This document shows positions 6,001-27,000 of a stretch of DNA of 47,965 nt, piece after piece. Origin of the DNA: an uncultured bacterium (GTDB lineage: Bacteria > Abyssobacteria > SURF-5); contig CAZEBC010000008.1 of the NCBI GenBank assembly GCA_964510165.1, forward strand, positions 1 through 47,965, read 5' to 3'. A program made the position numbers. Every line of letters begins with the position of its first letter. Position 1 is the stretch's first letter.

Positions 6001-9000
6001 GCTGTAAGTGTTACGAGGTCTATAAGCATCGCTCCGAGCAATGCTTCCCGTGTCCCGTTCAGGCCACGTTTCAGGACGGCAAGGTGCACCAGAGCGAAGA
6101 AGTGGTCGCCTCCAAGGACGGCGAACCGGTGAACGTGCTTGTGTATACGGCGCCCATTCGGGACGCGGGCGGCGAGATCAGAAGCGTGATGGAGATGAGC
6201 ACAAACATCACACAGATACGCGAACTTCAGTCGCAGCTCACCTCGCTCGGACTGCTTATCGGCTCAATTTCTCACGGAATCAAGGGACTTCTCAACAGCC
6301 TTGACGGCGGCATCTATCTCGTCAATACGGGCCTCGACAAGAACAGGCCGGCACGTGTTACGCAGGGATGGGAGATGGTCCAGCGAAATATCTCACGCAT
6401 CCGGAGCATGGTCCTGGATATCTTGTACTATGCGAAGGACCGTGAGCCGGAATATGAGAGAATCCCCGCCTTGGCCATGATTGAAGAAGTTTGCGGGATG
6501 ATGGAAACCAAGGCCGGGGAGCGAGGGATCGAATTGCGGAGGGAATTCGACCGTGAAGCGGGGAGCTTCGAGGGCGATGCCAAGGCCATCCGCTCGATGT
6601 TGGTCAACTTGTTTGAGAATGCCCTGGACGCATGCAGAGTGGATGACAAGAAGGACTCACACCAAGTCTTTGTGGCGATGGCGGGGAACTCCGATCACAT
6701 AGAATTCGAAATACGCGATAATGGCATCGGCATGGACCGAGAGACCAGGGAAAAAGCCTTCAGCCTTTTCTTCTCCTCAAAAGGGGTGGGAGGCACCGGG
6801 CTGGGCCTGTTCATCGCCAACAAGATCGCACTCGCCCATGGGGGCAAAATCCGGCTTGAATCCGAAATCAATCAGGGTACCCGTTGCCTGGTGAAAATCC
6901 CGAGGGTACGACCGAGAGAGCAACCCGAGGAGTCCTACGCCCTCTGATGGCAAGCAACAAGAGAAGAATCCTGACAATTGACGATGAGCCTGATGAGCGC
7001 ATCTATCTTGCCGCCCTGCTCGAGGACAACGGCTTCACAGCTGATACCGCCAAGGACGGAAACGAGGCCCTTGAGAAAGCGCGAGCCAGTCCTCCCGACC
7101 TGATAACACTTGACATCACGATGCCGGAGAAGTCAGGCGTAACTTTCTATCAAGAAATACGAAAAGACCCGAAACTGGGCAAGATACCCATCATAATCGT
7201 GACGGGTGTTACCGGATTGGACGGAGATCCGGAAGAATTTCGTCAATTTATATCTACACGAAAAGATACTCCTCCTCCGGAAGGTTTTGTAACCAAGCCC
7301 GTAGACCAAGAAAAGTTTCTCGAGAAGGTCGCCGAGCTTCTGAGGTAAGACTCTCGGGATTTCACCTTCTCGGACTCCTGTTGGAGTGGTGCTCCGCCTC
7401 AGCGTTGCTGTCCAAGTCACGTCCCCTTGCAAAATTTGCATAGTAACAAGTCGAACTTGACTGAATTATGCAAATATTTCATACCTCCCGAAGTGACGTT
7501 TTGATTTCGGCGCTGGTTATTGCTCCCCCTGTCTCCACTTTTTTAGAACTTAACCAATTTGTTGTCAAGAGTTTAGACCTGTCGCCCTTCTGCCCGACAT
7601 CCTGGCTTGGGATAATGGCATGGTAGTTGCTTTTTCTGGAATATTGTGGAAGTAGGTTTCCCTCCATCCAACCCCTGATGCCAAAAGCTGTTAGAAATGT
7701 AAATGGACGAAGAGTGGAGGGAACAAAAACCGGAGGTCACCCCTTGAAGGCAGCACCCTCCGGCAGACCGAGTTAGAGGCGGCATCATTCAGAGGCTCGA
7801 AGGATAAGTAAAAGGACAGGAGAGAGTTATGGCAGAGAAGGGCACACCGATGTTGGACGAGTTGGAGAAGGGTCCGTGGCCGAGCTTTGTGACGGAGATA
7901 AAGCGAGCGGGCAAGAAGAAGAAGGCGTGCATGGACCTTTTGCACCAGCTTGAGAAGTCGTACCGTGACCGTATTGGGTACTGGAAGCACGGGGGTATCG
8001 TTGGGGTGACGGGATACGGCGGGGGTGTGATTGGTCGGTACTCGATGTTTCCGGACGAGTATCCCGACATAGCGCATTTTCACACGATCCGAGTGAACAT
8101 GCCGTCGGGGTGGTTTTACACGTCGAAGGCGCTTCGGGCGGTGTGCGACATATGGGACGCGCACGGGAGCGGGTTGACGAACATGCACGGATCGACAGGG
8201 GACATCATATTATTGGGCACGACGACGGACCAGTTACAGCCGTGTTTTGACAATTTATCTGAGGCGGGTTTTGACCTTGGCGGCTCGGGTTCCGCGCTTC
8301 GTACGCCGAGCGCGTGCGTGGGACCCGCGCGGTGCGAGTGGTCGTGTTATGACACGCTTGATGCATGCCACACGATCACGATGGAGTTTCAGGACGAGCT
8401 ACATCGTCCGCCGTGGCCTTACAAGTTCAAGATGAAGTTCAGCGGGTGTCCGAACGACTGTGTGGCGTCGATTGCGCGGTCGGACCTGTCGGTGATCGGG
8501 ACGTGGCGGGACGCGATGCAGGTGGACAACGGCGCGGTGCGGGAGTATGCGGAGAAGGGGTTGGACATCCAGAAAGAGGTAGCGTCGTTGTGTCCGACGC
8601 GGGCGGTGGATTACGATTCGGGCACCAAGCAGCTTCGGATCATCAATGAGGACTGCGTGCGGTGCATGCACTGCATCAACGTGATGCCGAAGGCGTTGAG
8701 GCCTGGGAAGGAGCGGGGAGCGACGATTCTGGTAGGCGGGAAGGCGCCGATCCTGGAGGGTGCGATGCTGTCGTCGGTGATGATCCCGTTCATGAAGATG
8801 GAGCATCCGTACGATGAGCTAGTGGAGCTTGCGCGGAAGATACATGACTGGTGGGATGAGAACGCGAAGTTTCGTGAGCGAGTAGGTGAGTTGATCAAGC
8901 GAGTGGGGATTCGGACGTTCATCAAGGAGATGGGGCTTCCTGCGGTGCCACAGATGGTGAGTGCGCCGAGGGCGAACCCGTACTATTTCTGGTGGCCGGA

Positions 9001-24000: not shown

Positions 24001-27000
24001 AGAAGAAGAGCGTGCAGGTGATCGAAGAGAAGTGCATGTACTGCGGGAACTGTTACACGATGTGTCCGGCGATGCCTTTGATGGACCCGGACGGAGACGG
24101 GGTATCGATCTGGGTAGGCGGGAAGGTGTCGAACGCGCGTCATGCGCCGATGTTCTCGCGGTTGGCGATTCCGTATTTGCCGAACAATCCGCCGAGGTGG
24201 CCGGAGGTGGTGAAGGCGGTTCGGAACATTGTGGAGGTGTACGCGAGCAACGCGCGCAAGCACGAGCGAGTGGGAGAGTGGATCGAGCGAGTGGGCTGGG
24301 AGCGGTTCTTCAAGCTGACGGGAATCCCGTTCACGGACAAGCACATAGACGACTTCACGCTTGCGCAGGACACGTTCCGTACGACGCCGATGTTCAAGTG
24401 GTGAGTGCAGGGGCGGCTCTTGTGGCCGCCCGTAGGGGCGATTTTCGTGATCGCCCGCAAGGAAAGAAGGCGAGAGGCCGATGGACGAGGTGACGAGGAA
24501 CGGAGTACTAGAGTTCATCAAGAAGAAGGCGGAGCGAGGGAAGGGCCTGAACAGTTATCGAGACATAACGAAGGGCTGTCCCGAGCTTGACCGCAAGGCG
24601 ATAAAGAAGGCGGTGCAGGAGTTAATAGCGGAGGGCGTGCTTGACTACTGGTCGAGCGGCAGCACCACCTACATCCGCCTGGCCGGCTATGAGCCCGGCT
24701 CTGGCGAAACCCCACCCGAAGAATAGGATGGGAAGCAAGCAGGAAGCCATGAGGCATCTGAATAAGAAATGTCCGCGAGTCGTCTTGAGCGGATTGAGCG
24801 GTGGTTCTGGCAAGACGGTTGCCACGCTCGGATTGACTGAAATCTGGCGCCGCAAAGGCCTTGTCGTTGCCCCATTCAAGAAGGGGCCCGACTATATCGA
24901 TGTCGCCTGGCATGCGCTTTCTGCGGGCCGGCCAAGTCATAACCTCGATACGTTCCTGATGGCGCCGGATGACATCTTATGGAGTCTCGAGAACTACAGT
25001 CGATCTGCCGACGTTGCCCTGGTCGAAGGCAACCGAGGACTGTACGATGGGGTGGACGCGGCGGGCACACACAGCACCGCCGAGCTTGCCAAGCTTATTA
25101 ATGCGCCGGTAGTGCTGGTGGTCAATTGCACGAAAGCCACGCGCACCATCGCGGCGCTTGTGCTCGGATGCAGGGTGATGGACGCCGGTGTGAGAATCGG
25201 CGGAGTCATCCTGAATCAGGTTGCAAACATCCGGCAAGAATCCATAATCCGAGCCGCCATCGAGAAGGAAGTCGGAGTCCCCGTCATGGGTTCGATACCT
25301 CGGATAAAGGGCTTTTCTTTATCCGAGCGGCATCTCGGCCTTTTGCCCCCTCAAGAACATCCGCTGGCACGGAAGGCGTTGGAAGACCTGTTCGAGCAGG
25401 TGTTGAGTAATATTGATGCGGATGCTGTCTTGGAACTGGCGGAATCCTCGTCTCCTCTTCCGGCGCCGACGGTTGATGAACTTCCCGTTGCCCGGGCGGC
25501 CCGGGACACTCTCCGCATCGGCGTGTTCCGGGATTCGGCGTTCACTTTCTATTATCCCGAGAACTTGGAGGCGCTCGAGCAAGCAGGCGCTCGACTGGTG
25601 GAAATCAGCGGGCTCCTCGACGGAGAACTGCCTCCCCTAGATGCCCTCTATATCGGTGGCGGATTCCCTGAGACGCATGCAAGGGAATTGGCCGACAACG
25701 GGAGCCTGCGGGCCTCCGTACTCAGGGAAGCGCAGGATGGGCTTCCGATCTACGCCGAATGCGGCGGGCTGATCTATCTCGCGGATGCGGTGGAGTTTGG
25801 CGGGAAGAAGTATCCGATGGCGGGTGTGTTTCCCGTCATTTTTTCGGTCGGGGAAAAACCGCAGGGACACGGTTACATGGTTGTTGAGGTTGACCGACCC
25901 AACCCGTTCTTCCCGAAAGGAACTGTTCTGCGCGGACATGAATTCCACTATGCAGGCGTGTCTGAGTATGACCACGATGTGGAAACCGTGTTCAAGGTTC
26001 GGCGCGGTTCAGGTTTTGATTGTGGGCGCGACGGCCTCGTCTGCAAGAATGTCCTCGCGTCTTTCTGTCATGTGCACGCCCTCGGAGAAAAACAGTGGGC
26101 GAAGGCGCTTGTAGAGATGGCAGCAGCCCGTCGGGCCAGACATTACACAAAGATTGTCTTGTGATGGCGGTCTATTAGCGGATGAAGGACTTGTGCGTGG
26201 CGGCTGTAATCATGCAGTCGGATTTCGGCAAGAAGCGCTCCAACTTGGCGAAGATGAGCAGGCTCTTGAAAAAGGCCGTGAAACGAGGCGCTGAAATCGT
26301 CTGCTTTCCCGAGTTGTGCATTACGGGATACGCGCTTGAAGAGAAGATCAGAGAACTTGCCGAACCTGTGCCGGGTCCATGCACAGAGACTTTGGCTCAC
26401 ATGGCCAAGGAAAGTGGCGCAGCGGTGATAGCGGGAATGGCCGAGCGAACAGAAGGCGGAGGCACTGCAGTGACCCAGATAGTGGCCCTAGCTTCGGGCA
26501 AGATTGCCAAGTACCGCAAAGTTCACCTGTCGCCCGGAGAGAAGAACGTGTTCGAAGCCGGAAACGAGGCGCCGGTCTTTCAGATGGGGCAAACCATATT
26601 TGGAGTCCAACTGTGTTACGACGCCCATTTTCCGGAGCTCAGCACGGTCATGGCATTGAAGGGTGCAGAGGTCCTGTTCATGTCACACGCTTCACCCGCG
26701 CCTGAATCGGCAGAGGCGAAACGGACCAGATGGCTGCGGTACCTTTCCACGCGCGCGTACGACAACAGCGTGTTCGTCGTCGCGTGCAACCAGACCGGAA
26801 ACGGGGGCGCCGGGGTCAGCTTCACGGGTGTAGCCTTGGTTGTGGACCCTCGGGGCGAGGTACTTGCGGAGACGGCCGGCCCGGAGGAAGCGATGGTTGT
26901 CGCGAATCTGAAGGCCGATGTATTGACGACGCGACGCAATACGAGGATGGGCTTCTTCCTGCCGCATCGGCGACCGGAACTGTATGGGGAGCTAGTCACG

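What a model noticed while it worked through the whole genome (the two positions that open the first line are those of the whole stretch)
7818..24727. dsrABD present twice as identical repeats around sat-apr-qmo; explains missing dsrAB in Abyssubacteria MAGs
dsrA-dsrB-dsrD occurs twice as 2,622-bp, 100% identical direct repeats (7818-10439 and 22106-24727). The copies bracket sat-aprBA-(YkgJ-like)-qmoABC-(Npsr-like) and are followed by dsrN, dsrC and dsrMKJOP. The layout is shared by at least five genera of the family, and the copies are kept identical within genomes while diverging between them (concerted evolution). Because the repeat collapses in short-read assemblies, dsrAB and dsrD look absent from most MAGs of the lineage, including in the founding description.
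Evidence so far: - Self-megablast gives 100% identity over 2622 bp. Pfam names all the genes. - G002 has the same order with 2616-bp identical repeats. - The repeat is 83.8% identical between G000 and G002, and the unique segment 73.1%. The repeat starts at the same ribosome-binding-site position in both. - DsrA is found in 2 of 11 genomes, AprA in 9 of 11. - Of 7 aprA contigs, 3 start in the dsrD tail and 4 end in the dsrA head. - dsrN lies at a contig end in 5 of 5 relatives searched. - The sat contig and the dsrN contig share an identical 99, 99 or 141 nt and then diverge in 3 of 3 genomes tested. - Public-run contigs break at the repeat borders, and repeat pieces have about twice the depth of unique piec [...]
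(Added by a program. Inside this text positions count along the whole contig: contig position 1 is position 1 of the stretch shown here. "Call 12" and the like, gene names such as g00115 and contig names such as C1 are that model's own, and its searches are not shown. The text may have been shortened before it was handed on; [...] marks where a part breaks off. The agent that wrote the report below was given it as the finding of a first reader that could run no searches.)

Follow-up and report, generated by a model that had tools for sequence, protein, structure and literature searches.

The report
Duplicated dsrABD flanking sulfate-reduction genes
This uncultured subsurface bacterium appears to carry its key sulfite-reductase genes (dsrABD) twice, as identical 2.6-kb copies on either side of its sulfate-activation genes, and this repeat breaks short-read assemblies and makes the genes look absent from most genomes of the lineage.

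Summary
Bases 7818-10439 and 22106-24727 are an exact 2622-bp direct repeat holding dsrA, dsrB and dsrD. It brackets sat-aprBA-(Zn-finger)-(YkgJ-like)-qmoABC-(Npsr-like) and is followed by dsrN-dsrC-dsrMKJOP.

The same branch topology occurs in 6 of 10 genomes of the family, on both sides of its deepest split. In those genomes two different left flanks run into one dsrA head, or one dsrD tail runs into two different right flanks. In four public runs the repeat has 1.5-1.8 times the depth of the unique parts.

A named founding Abyssubacteria contig starts inside dsrD and ends inside dsrA, although the founding paper reported dsrAB and dsrD as absent.

I add four points:
- Other phyla carry sat-apr-qmo-dsrAB-dsrN-dsrC with one dsrAB. 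The downstream copy is therefore ancestral and the copy before sat is the added one.
- One family member (G004) joins Npsr directly to dsrN and has lost the downstream copy.
- The 14.3-kb unit has no replication genes, which argues against a stable circle.
- All genomes are short-read assemblies, so exact identity is partly by construction.

No read spans a repeat. I rate this a solid new variant of a known cluster, of moderate interest.

The parts
3717..5432 (+). Upstream flank A: protein with 4Fe-4S dicluster, CCG domain and a response-regulator receiver
   Evidence: Pfam Fer4_8, CCG, Response_reg. An 85%-identical homologue lies directly before dsrA in metagenome contig L168.
5514..6947 (+). 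Upstream flank A: PAS sensor histidine kinase
   Evidence: Pfam PAS_4, HATPase_c
6884..7348 (+). Upstream flank A: single-domain response regulator. A 480-nt intergenic gap follows, up to dsrA copy 1.
   Evidence: Pfam Response_reg; gap measured
7818..10439 (+). Repeat copy R1 (dsrA-dsrB-dsrD), the derived copy at the head of the cluster
   Evidence: Exact 2622-bp match to 22106-24727. Outgroups have no dsrAB before sat.
7829..9055 (+). dsrA, copy 1
   Evidence: TIGR02064 567.5 bits against cut-off 392.85; CX5C...CX3C cysteines present
9058..10116 (+). dsrB, copy 1. The start is set at ATG 9058, which has a ribosome-binding site; the longest ORF starts at 8992.
   Evidence: TIGR02066 531.3 bits against cut-off 341.5; start chosen
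10193..10438 (+). dsrD, copy 1
   Evidence: Pfam DsrD, 54.5 bits against cut-off 24.2
10625..11863 (+). sat (sulfate adenylyltransferase)
   Evidence: NF003166 533 bits against cut-off 387
12007..12450 (+). aprB
   Evidence: TIGR02060 212.9 bits against cut-off 135.65
12460..14340 (+). aprA
   Evidence: TIGR02061 914.4 bits against cut-off 641.75
14453..14740 (+). Small Ogr/Delta-like zinc-finger protein, a conserved companion of aprA in many phyla
   Evidence: Pfam Ogr_Delta; found after aprA in most of the 80 AprA loci
14747..15589 (+). YkgJ-like CxxCxxCC protein
   Evidence: Pfam CxxCxxCC; conserved after aprA
15600..16856 (+). qmoA
   Evidence: HdrA-like flavoprotein; position before qmoB and qmoC
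16864..19107 (+). qmoB
   Evidence: HdrA-like with FlpD domain
19121..20347 (+). qmoC
   Evidence: NF038018 450 bits against cut-off 300
20366..22072 (+). Npsr-like pyridine-nucleotide disulfide oxidoreductase with a C-terminal rhodanese domain. It ends 44 nt before dsrA copy 2.
   Evidence: Pfam Pyr_redox_2, Pyr_redox_dim, Rhodanese. It is below the CoA-disulfide reductase cut-offs, so the name is by likeness only.
22106..24727 (+). Repeat copy R2 (dsrA 22117-23343, dsrB 23346-24404, dsrD 24481-24726), at the ancestral position between the apr-qmo module and dsrN
   Evidence: Exact match to R1. The order sat-apr-qmo-dsrAB-dsrN-dsrC is found in outgroups.
24749..26164 (+). dsrN (siroheme/cobyrinate a,c-diamide synthase family); starts 22 nt after dsrD copy 2
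   Evidence: Pfam GATase_3, CbiA; TIGR00379; start chosen
26182..27084 (+). Carbon-nitrogen hydrolase between dsrN and dsrC
   Evidence: Pfam CN_hydrolase. Also present in G001 and G005, absent in G004.
27132..27449 (+). dsrC with two C-terminal cysteines
   Evidence: Pfam DsrC, TIGR03342; C-terminus read
27638..28195 (+). RsbRD_N-domain protein between dsrC and dsrM
   Evidence: Pfam; conserved at this place in outgroups L113, L145 and L171
28195..33125 (+). dsrM, dsrK, dsrJ, dsrO, dsrP
   Evidence: NF038037, NF045796, NF038038, NF045797 and NF045798, all above cut-offs

Best explanation
The chromosome carries one co-directional ~25-kb supercluster for the whole dissimilatory sulfate-reduction pathway. 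Its order is dsrABD(R1) - sat - aprBA - Zn-finger - YkgJ-like - qmoABC - Npsr-like - dsrABD(R2) - dsrN - CN-hydrolase - dsrC - RsbRD_N - dsrMKJOP.

R2 sits where other phyla keep their single dsrAB. R1 is an extra copy that was added in front of sat at or before the last common ancestor of the family.

The two copies have since been kept (near-)identical within each genome while orthologues drifted to about 84% identity between genera. The inferred mechanism is homologous recombination between the copies (gene conversion). The tract ends where homology ends: 8-19 nt before the dsrA start codon and within about 20 nt of the dsrD stop.

The repeats are direct and flank essential genes. Resolving them by crossover would delete sat-apr-qmo, so the duplication is hard to lose (inference). 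One member (G004) lost R2 by another route.

A practical consequence follows. The 2.6-kb repeat collapses into one double-depth node in short-read graphs, contigs stop there, and the small repeat contig is not binned. As a result dsrAB and dsrD look absent from most genomes of the lineage.

Shown: the repeat, the gene content, the branch junctions, the depth excess, the outgroup order and the G004 exception. Inferred: the linear order, gene conversion, and any dosage or regulatory benefit.
For: - **Repeat and genes:**
- **Second genome:** G001 has an exact 2616-bp repeat in the same order. Between G000 and G001 the repeat is 83.4% identical, the middle segment 73.1%, and dsrN-dsrP 68.5%.
- **Head junctions:** contigs with unrelated left flanks share exactly 141 nt (G006), 99 nt (G008) and 99 nt (G009) of dsrA head.
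- **Tail junctions:** one dsrD tail runs on into sat on one contig and into dsrN on another. The shared lengths are 141, 99 and 99 nt and 55 nt in G007.
- **Tallies including G000 and G001:** both heads in 5 of 10 family genomes, both tails in 6 of 10. The apr-qmo segment runs into a dsrA head in 8 of 10.
- **Distinct dsrD 3' ends:** in G001, G006 and G007 the two dsrD copies have different last codons or stop codons, so two distinct 3' ends exist.
- **Depth:** from the records listed in table 8 (32 of 267 records; length-weighted, my arithmetic), repeat against unique depth is 16.9 vs 9.2 (X1), 7.0 vs 4.7 (X2), 9.1 vs 5.5 (X3) and 6.0 vs 3.7 (X4). These are 4 of 4 runs from 3 studies. Flank A and the middle segment have about equal depth in all four.
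- **Collapsed node seen directly:** a 2605-nt metagenome contig (L162) consists of the repeat alone, from 7 nt before dsrA to just past dsrD.
- **Polarity:** many outgroup loci have sat-aprBA-Zn-finger-YkgJ-(qmo)-dsrAB-dsrN-dsrC with one dsrAB (for example L113, L129, L131, L133, L137, L156). Only 1 of 80 AprA loci (L108, from the family) shows two copies.
- **Age:** on a QmoB+QmoC tree of all 10 family genomes, the two-copy topology lies on both sides of the deepest split, G006+G007 (support 100) against the rest.
- **No replication, partition, integrase or transposase domain** in the 14.3-kb unit, whose nine middle-segment genes (plus dsrABD of the repeat) fill it; no inverted repeats of 40 nt or more.
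- **Literature:** dsrAB and dsrD are reported absent in the founding paper (passage). A contig titled as one of its genomes starts with 31 codons of dsrD and ends with 28 codons of dsrA.
Against: - No read and no independently built contig spans a repeat with both flanks. The runs available were Logan contigs only, and these break at every branch.
- G000 is a short-read scaffold assembly with 325 contigs, N50 of 18 kb and 147 gaps of 100 N. G001 carries a SPAdes-style NODE name. The path A-R-B-R-C is therefore a graph traversal, and the two printed copies are identical by construction.
- The two other intra-contig repeats of G000 also have exact cores, as expected from such traversals.
- The depth ratio is 1.5-1.8, not 2.0. 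The tool warns that contig depth is no copy number.
- G004 has Npsr joined to dsrN across 13 nt with no dsrABD, so the layout is not universal.
- Metagenome contigs L163 and L166 run from Npsr 1.9-2.4 kb into the repeat, and L168 runs from flank A 1.5 kb into it, without breaking at the head. In those organisms the copies may differ, or only one may exist. Alternatively the assembler simply extended into the repeat.
- Left flanks are unrelated in all 5 genomes compared, so the insertion site of R1 cannot be traced.
- Gene conversion is inferred from the pattern and not observed.
Confidence: 0.75

Rival explanations
1. The chromosome holds A-dsrABD-dsrN... and a separate 14.3-kb circle holds dsrABD-sat-apr-qmo-Npsr, or the population is a mixture in which the circle loops out of and back into the chromosome by recombination between the repeats. 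The assembly graph and depths would be the same, and two dsrABD copies per cell are still needed.
For: The graph has exactly the form that both arrangements give. No spanning record exists. Direct repeats of 2.6 kb are good substrates for RecA-type crossover (established knowledge). Left flanks differ between genera.
Against: - The unit is filled by dsrABD and nine metabolic or accessory genes, none with a replication, partition or mobilisation domain. A circle could not be inherited over the divergence of at least 5 genera.
- Middle-segment depth is about equal to flank depth in 4 of 4 runs. This fits integration, or a copy number fixed at one.
- Outgroups have the middle segment, dsrAB and dsrN joined on one molecule, including contigs of 1.9-5.5 Mb (L111, L131).
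- Starting from that order, the circle state can only arise after the linear duplicated state.
Confidence: 0.12
2. Only one dsrABD exists per genome. The second copy is an assembly artefact that comes from co-assembled strains with different gene orders.
For: All family genomes are short-read metagenome bins. The runs hold several strains that differ by single bases (table 3).
Against: - The middle-segment contigs of G006, G008 and G009 run k bases into the repeat at both ends and share those bases with the flank contigs. The branch is therefore at the repeat border, not at the end of the middle segment.
- Flank A, the middle segment and the dsrN side have equal depth and each joins only to the repeat, so two repeat entries per genome are needed.
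- The repeat has 1.5-1.8 times the depth of the unique parts in 4 of 4 runs.
- The same topology would have to recur by chance in 5 genera from different samples.
Confidence: 0.03
3. Two chromosomal copies exist but are not identical. They differ at some positions, and the assemblers merged them by bubble popping, so homogenisation is weaker or older than '100%' suggests.
For: - Identity is by construction in graph traversals. All three intra-contig repeats of G000 have exact cores.
- In G001, G006 and G007 the identity already ends inside or at the dsrD stop, which shows that the edges erode.
- L163, L166 and L168 pass the repeat head without a break.
Against: - Copies that had diverged like the orthologues (about 16%) could not collapse at k = 99-141.
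- L162 is one unbroken 2605-nt node.
- In runs X3 and X4 the strain differs from the window at 12 or more listed sites inside the repeat. Each is carried at the full double depth on one contig (tables 3 and 8). This fits both copies sharing the changes, though popped bubbles cannot be excluded.
Confidence: 0.1

Closest known systems
The clustered sulfate-respiration gene set (sat-aprBA-qmoABC-dsrAB-dsrN-dsrC-dsrMK...) seen in several phyla. Mussmann et al. 2005 proposed concomitant horizontal transfer; I saw only the title in a reference list, and the paper is not held.
   Same: Same genes in the same order and direction from sat to dsrM. This includes the small Zn-finger and YkgJ-like genes after aprA and the RsbRD_N gene before dsrM.
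   Different: Those clusters have one dsrAB, after the apr-qmo genes. Here an extra dsrABD stands in front of sat and is identical to the downstream one. Only 1 of 80 AprA loci, itself from this family, shows two copies.
Genomes with more than one dsrAB: second copies in Moorella (passage), an extra dsrAB outside the dsr cluster in Sulfurifustis and Sulfuricaulis (passages), and two or more copies in Actinomycetota and CG2-30-53-67 (passage).
   Same: More than one dsrAB per genome.
   Different: The Moorella second copies form the most basal DsrAB branch. [quoted passage not shown] For Sulfurifustis and Sulfuricaulis the passages say only that an extra dsrAB lies outside the dsr cluster, not how alike the copies are. 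None is described as an identical repeat that includes dsrD and flanks sat-apr-qmo.
Multiple, almost identical amoCAB operons of betaproteobacterial ammonia oxidisers (passage). Concerted evolution of duplicated tuf genes and rRNA operons is recalled from general knowledge, not from any call.
   Same: A key catabolic marker operon kept in near-identical copies within a genome while diverging between lineages. This inflates marker-gene counts.
   Different: A different enzyme. The amo copies are dispersed, whereas here the copies are direct repeats 11.7 kb apart that enclose essential pathway genes.
Repeat collapse in short-read metagenome bins, such as missing rRNA operons and insertion sequences (general knowledge, recalled).
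   Same: A multi-copy segment becomes one high-depth node, contigs end at it, and the node is not binned.
   Different: Here the lost segment is the diagnostic gene of a respiratory pathway, and its loss led to a published metabolic inference.

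Membership tests
DsrAB-type dissimilatory sulfite reductase system | DsrA and DsrB score above the curated equivalog cut-offs | tested here: met
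   TIGR02064 567.5 bits (cut-off 392.85); TIGR02066 531.3 bits (cut-off 341.5)
DsrAB-type dissimilatory sulfite reductase system | Cysteine motif for the siroheme-[4Fe-4S] site, CX5C...CX3C (motif recalled, not from a call) | tested here: inconclusive
   DsrA has C163-X5-C169 and C207-X3-C211. In DsrB my patterns found only CX3C and the ferredoxin-type CX2CX2CX3C. I made no alignment to a solved structure.
DsrAB-type dissimilatory sulfite reductase system | Partner genes are present: dsrD next to dsrB, dsrC with two C-terminal cysteines (feature recalled), and dsrMKJOP | tested here: met
   Pfam DsrD. The DsrC C-terminus has Cys at the penultimate position and 11 residues before it. DsrM/K/J/O/P are above cut-offs.
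DsrAB-type dissimilatory sulfite reductase system | Sulfite reduction activity and its direction in vivo | not testable with these tools
   There is no culture and no RNA run among the holders. The direction (reduction, disproportionation or oxidation) is inferred from dsrD and sat-apr-qmo only.
Complete dissimilatory sulfate reduction pathway | Sat, AprBA and QmoABC encoded together with DsrAB | tested here: met
   sat, aprB, aprA and qmoC are above cut-offs. qmoA and qmoB are HdrA-like and in the expected place.
Duplicated genes under concerted evolution (gene conversion) | Two copies in one genome | tested here: met
   Two left flanks join one head and one tail joins two right flanks. Depth excess is 1.5-1.8 fold in 4 of 4 runs. 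No spanning read exists.
Duplicated genes under concerted evolution (gene conversion) | Copies are more alike within a genome than orthologues are between genomes, although the duplication predates the split | tested here: met
   Identity is 100% within G000 and within G001, against 83.4% between them. The topology lies on both sides of the deepest family split. Exact identity is by construction of the assemblies; near-identity is required for the collapse.
Duplicated genes under concerted evolution (gene conversion) | Conversion tracts or mosaic intermediates observed | not testable with these tools
   This needs raw or long reads, or several closed genomes. Only contigs were available.
Plasmid or other autonomous circle | Replication, partition or mobilisation genes on the unit | tested here: not met
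   The 12 genes of the 14.3-kb unit are all dsr, sat, apr, qmo or accessory redox/zinc-finger genes.
Composite transposon or insertion-sequence-bounded element | Transposase genes or terminal inverted repeats at the repeat ends | tested here: not met
   No inverted repeat of 40 nt or more in the window. No transposase or integrase domain in 3717-33125. The repeat itself is dsrABD.

The most novel reading that the evidence does not exclude
The repeat pair may make sat-aprBA-qmoABC plus one dsrABD an excisable and amplifiable cassette. Crossover between the copies would release a 14.3-kb circle that carries the catalytic core for sulfate-to-sulfide reduction. The circle could re-integrate into any resident dsrABD by homology. 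This would give a transposase-free route for moving or switching off sulfate respiration. It might explain how the clustered sulfate-respiration genes spread between phyla, and why the left flank of the cluster differs in every genus.
Probability: 0.1. Interest if true: 0.8.

Novelty: new variant of a known kind. Interest (0 to 1): 0.55.

Why it matters
- **It corrects a published metabolic inference.** The founding description concluded that these subsurface bacteria reduce sulfate only to sulfite because dsrAB and dsrD were not found. The genes are there, cut off at contig ends. The lineage encodes the full pathway, in line with later bin surveys.
- **It gives a concrete, checkable reason for a false absence.** A diagnostic respiratory gene can vanish from otherwise near-complete bins. 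Six of the 8 DsrA-less family genomes, 5 of them 91-98% complete with at most 3% contamination, the sixth 94% with 6% contamination, still hold a truncated dsrA head or dsrD tail. Absence calls for marker genes should include a look at contig ends.
- **It affects counting.** dsrAB is used as a single-copy marker for sulfate reducers, and a lineage with two copies is counted twice.
- **It is a clean natural case of a long-lived duplication.** The copies of a highly expressed operon stay alike across genus-level divergence and are placed so that simple crossover would delete essential genes.

Tried and rejected
- **Spanning evidence.** The only runs holding the window were kept as Logan contigs. 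These break at the repeat borders, so the order could not be tested. None spans a whole repeat with both flanks.
- **Promoter and terminator scan of 7000-26000.** It found 6 promoter-like sites against 7.8 expected from shuffles, so it gives no basis for saying how the two copies are transcribed. A hairpin between dsrB and dsrD lies inside the repeat and does not distinguish the copies.
- **Pfam DsrD searched in five relatives.** It rang nowhere, not even in the control genomes, so the result is uninformative.
- **G002.** The 35 nt of reading frame at the contig end before sat could be a dsrD tail, but it is too short to call. I left G002 out of the junction tallies.
- **Mussmann et al. 2005** is not held.
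- **Transposon or phage origin of the repeat** was rejected. There are no inverted repeats and no mobility genes. The Ogr/Delta-like zinc finger is a conserved neighbour of aprA in many phyla, not a prophage remnant.
- **Independent recent duplications in each genus** were rejected. The borders lie at the same two places, within about 20 nt, in every genome.
- **Literature.**
  - Searches for 'Abyssubacteria' (27 papers) and 'Abyssobacteria' (1 paper).
  - Searches for 'copies of dsrAB' (10 papers) and 'dsrAB' with 'gene conversion' (3 papers).
  - A search for 'dsrAB' with 'identical copies' (9 papers).
  - These searches turned up no description of identical dsrAB repeats. I read passages in 10 papers only, and no supplements. 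The supplementary gene tables of the papers may list dsr genes that I did not see.

Full report
**Observation**

The window holds an exact direct repeat of 2622 bp, 7818-10439 and 22106-24727, spaced 14288 bp. It cannot be extended by a single base, and the 100-nt flanks are unrelated (23-25% identity). It begins 11 nt before the dsrA start codon, at the ribosome-binding site, and ends one base after the dsrD stop.

Pfam and NCBIfam name the genes. All are on the + strand, in this order:
- dsrA, dsrB, dsrD (copy 1)
- sat, aprB, aprA
- an Ogr/Delta-like zinc-finger gene and a YkgJ-like CxxCxxCC gene
- qmoA, qmoB, qmoC
- an Npsr-like flavoprotein disulfide reductase with a rhodanese domain
- dsrA, dsrB, dsrD (copy 2)
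- dsrN, a C-N hydrolase, dsrC, an RsbRD_N-domain gene
- dsrM, dsrK, dsrJ, dsrO, dsrP

DsrA, DsrB, Sat, AprB, AprA, QmoC and DsrM/K/J/O/P all exceed the curated cut-offs. DsrC ends in the two-cysteine arm (the feature itself is recalled). A two-component system and a CCG/Fe-S protein fused to a receiver domain lie upstream.

**What kind of assembly this is**

The window is a whole contig (C8) of a genome with 325 contigs, an N50 of 18 kb and 147 gaps of exactly 100 N. That is a short-read scaffold bin.

In a self-BLAST of the genome only four repeats of 200 bp or more exist. Three lie within one contig, and the dsrABD repeat is the longest. The other two (C205, C6) also have exact cores, with mismatches only at their edges.

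A de Bruijn assembler that walks a collapsed node twice prints two identical copies whatever the small differences in the cell. The figure '100%' therefore means 'too alike to be separated'. It does not measure identity.

**Evidence from relatives**

The phylum has 11 species genomes in the collection, 10 of them in the window's family. The single genome of the other family lacks DsrB and DsrK.

| Query | Found in |
|---|---|
| Full DsrA | 2 of 10 family genomes (G000, G001), two places each |
| AprA | 9 of 10 (missing in G004) |
| Orthologous Sat (85% identity or more) | 7 of 10 complete, 1 partial |

G001 has an exact 2616-bp repeat in the same gene order. Between G000 and G001 the repeat is 83.4% identical, the middle segment 73.1% and dsrN-dsrP 68.5%.

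A DNA search with the repeat finds short pieces at contig ends in five further genomes. The details are:
- **G006, G008, G009, heads.** Two contigs with unrelated left flanks end in the same dsrA head, sharing exactly 141, 99 and 99 nt.
- **G006, G008, G009, tails.** Two contigs begin with the same dsrD tail (141, 99, 99 nt). One runs on into sat, the other into dsrN.
- **G007.** It shows the same pair of tails, sharing 55 nt and diverging inside the stop codon.
- **G003 and G005.** Their Npsr contigs end in a dsrA head.

Counting G000 and G001, both heads are seen in 5 of 10 genomes and both tails in 6 of 10. The apr-qmo segment runs into dsrA in 8 of 10. G002 (77% complete) is undecided.

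The borders lie 8-19 nt before the dsrA ATG and from about 12 nt before to 17 nt after the dsrD stop in every case. In G001, G006 and G007 the two dsrD genes therefore have different last codons or stop codons.

**An exception**

In G004 one 6667-nt contig reads qmoB-qmoC-Npsr-dsrN-dsrC. Only 13 nt lie between the Npsr stop and the dsrN start, there is no dsrABD, and there is no C-N hydrolase.

Its congener G005 is 76% identical over the 5 kb up to the Npsr stop, and then runs into a dsrA head.

On a QmoB+QmoC tree of all ten family genomes with three outgroups (LG+G4, ultrafast bootstrap):
- G004 is sister to G005 (support 80), inside a clade with G002 (100).
- G006+G007 (100) branch first from the rest (64).
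- The family as a whole has support 100.

The two-copy topology thus lies on both sides of the deepest split, and the G004 state is most simply a later loss of the downstream copy. G004 has no DsrA, DsrB, AprA or orthologous Sat in its 830 contigs. Whether it keeps the upstream copy cannot be told, and repeat collapse cannot be shown to explain its missing dsrAB.

**Public runs**

Five runs from three studies hold the stretch, all as Logan contigs. I laid four of them on 4000-22105, which contains one repeat copy.

- Contigs stop at 7818 (+30) and at 10439 (-30). The contigs of the middle segment overhang its end by 30 letters.
- In X3 a contig leaves 10439 into the sequence that follows copy 2.

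Depths below are length-weighted from the listed records (32 of 267 listed; my arithmetic).

| Run | Repeat depth | Unique depth | Ratio |
|---|---|---|---|
| X1 | 16.9 | 9.2 | 1.8 |
| X2 | 7.0 | 4.7 | 1.5 |
| X3 | 9.1 | 5.5 | 1.7 |
| X4 | 6.0 | 3.7 | 1.6 |

The upstream flank and the middle segment have about the same depth in all four runs. The tool warns that such depths are not copy numbers. They agree with two copies but do not prove it. No record spans a repeat.

In X3 and X4 the strain differs from the window at 12 or more listed sites inside the repeat. Each of those sites is on a single contig of double depth. This fits both copies sharing the changes, but popped bubbles cannot be excluded.

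**Metagenome contigs**

Thirteen loci encode a DsrA relative; I annotated nine of them.
- **L162** (2605 nt) is the repeat alone, from 7 nt before dsrA to just past dsrD. This is the collapsed node itself.
- **L163 and L166** run from Npsr 1.9-2.4 kb into the repeat.
- **L168** runs from a homologue of the CCG-receiver gene 1.5 kb into it.

These last three pass the head without breaking. That may mean non-identical copies or a single copy in those organisms, or simply an assembler that extends unique paths into a repeat.

**Polarity**

Among the 80 best AprA loci from species genomes, many carry sat-aprBA-Zn-finger-YkgJ-(qmo)-dsrAB-dsrN-dsrC with a single dsrAB after the apr-qmo genes. They come from other phyla, with titles naming Zixibacteria, Kapabacteria/Ignavibacteria, Acidobacteriota and others. 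Some lie on contigs of 1.9-5.5 Mb. Only one locus, from this family, has two copies.

Metagenome relatives with 70% DsrA identity have dsrAB-dsrN-dsrC-RsbRD_N-dsrM.

The downstream copy is therefore at the ancestral place, and the copy before sat is the addition. The 8-9 kb to the left of the upstream copy share no gene among the five genomes compared, apart from one weak match (25% identity) between one ORF of G006 and one of G009. Conserved synteny thus begins exactly at that copy.

**Lineage and literature**

The closest named record is a 12034-nt contig titled Candidatus Abyssobacteria bacterium SURF_17. Its AprA is 89% identical to the window's. It begins with the last 31 codons of dsrD, carries sat to Npsr, and ends with the first 28 codons of dsrA.

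- The founding paper states that neither dsrAB nor dsrD was identified, and that the genomes seem capable only of sulfate reduction to sulfite (passage).
- A later lake study lists DsrAB, AprAB, Sat and Qmo for an Abyssubacteria bin (passages).
- A blue-hole study counts one such bin among sulfate reducers (passage).

The presence of dsrAB in the lineage is therefore not new. My searches turned up no description of the repeat, its conservation or its effect on assemblies. I read passages in 10 papers only and opened no supplements.

Known multi-copy dsrAB cases are described:
- The Moorella second copies are the most basal DsrAB branch.
- For Sulfurifustis and Sulfuricaulis the passages do not say how alike the copies are.

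The nearest analogue in behaviour is the set of almost identical amoCAB operons of some ammonia oxidisers (passage).

**Explanation**

- **Two copies per genome.** This follows from the graph. Flank A, the middle segment and the dsrN side have equal depth and each joins only to the repeat.
- **Linear order.** It is favoured over chromosome plus circle because the 14.3-kb unit has no replication or partition gene. It is also favoured because the arrangement has persisted across the family, and because outgroups have the middle segment, dsrAB and dsrN on one molecule. A transient circle produced by crossover remains possible.
- **Homogenisation.** The duplication is older than the genera, yet the copies collapse in every genome while orthologues differ by about 16%. 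The copies must therefore be homogenised, and gene conversion is the standard mechanism (inference).
- **Persistence.** Crossover between direct repeats would delete sat-apr-qmo, so the duplication is hard to lose. This may explain its persistence without any dosage benefit (inference).
- **Regulation.** Copy 1 follows a 480-nt gap after a two-component system. Copy 2 follows Npsr by 44 nt here, and by about 140-230 nt in relatives. Separate regulation is possible, but nothing here tests it.

**Verdict**

The points to carry forward are:
- exactness is by construction;
- no spanning read exists;
- G004 is an exception;
- the polarity of the duplication is now established.

I judge this a new variant of a known gene cluster. 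It has a clear practical lesson for calling pathways from bins, and I rate its interest as moderate.

Noticed in passing
G004:C171 (locus L051), junction Npsr|dsrN: One family member has qmoBC-Npsr joined to dsrN-dsrC across 13 nt, with no dsrABD and no C-N hydrolase. Its congener G005 runs from Npsr into dsrA. This is a natural loss of the downstream copy.
   Followed up: yes
window 14453-15589: A small Ogr/Delta-like zinc-finger gene and a YkgJ-like CxxCxxCC gene follow aprA here and in most of the 80 AprA loci from many phyla. They look like unnamed conserved parts of the apr-qmo module.
   Followed up: partly
window 3717-5432: A protein with a 4Fe-4S dicluster and an HdrD/DsrK-like CCG domain is fused to a C-terminal response-regulator receiver. 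An 85%-identical homologue without the last ~135 residues matched lies directly before dsrA in metagenome contig L168. It is possibly a redox-linked regulator of dsr.
   Followed up: no
window 35763-36548: A response-regulator receiver is fused to a glycine-cleavage-H-like (lipoyl-carrier type) domain. It lies just downstream of dsrMKJOP, a kinase-like gene and a HAMP histidine kinase. This is an unusual output domain.
   Followed up: no
window 26182-27084: A carbon-nitrogen hydrolase gene sits between dsrN (an amidating enzyme) and dsrC in G000, G001 and G005 but not in G004. Its role is unknown.
   Followed up: no
G000:C205:721-2297 and 3261-4837; G000:C6:8061-9341 and 11883-13163: These are the only other intra-contig repeats of the genome. 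One is two tandem 824-residue reading frames that share about 1.57 kb exactly. The other is two neighbouring large genes that share an exact 1163-bp core with diverged edges. Like dsrABD, they may be converted paralogues or graph traversals.
   Followed up: partly
G006:C112 and G007:C172 (loci L187, L188): In this genus the middle segment lacks the Npsr-like gene, and qmoC runs straight into the dsrA head.
   Followed up: partly
G009:C132:2069-3940: The aprA match contains one in-frame TAA. This may be a sequencing error or a broken gene; I did not examine it.
   Followed up: no
window 10128-10151 = 24416-24439: A 10-pair hairpin followed by a T-rich run lies between dsrB and dsrD, inside both repeat copies. 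It is possibly an attenuator or a transcript-stabilising structure.
   Followed up: no
Left flanks of the cluster in G000, G001, G006, G008, G009: The 8-9 kb upstream of the first dsrABD copy share no gene between the five genomes, apart from one weak match at 25% identity. Genes downstream of dsrP are shared by G000 and G001. Conserved synteny thus starts exactly at the repeat.
   Followed up: partly
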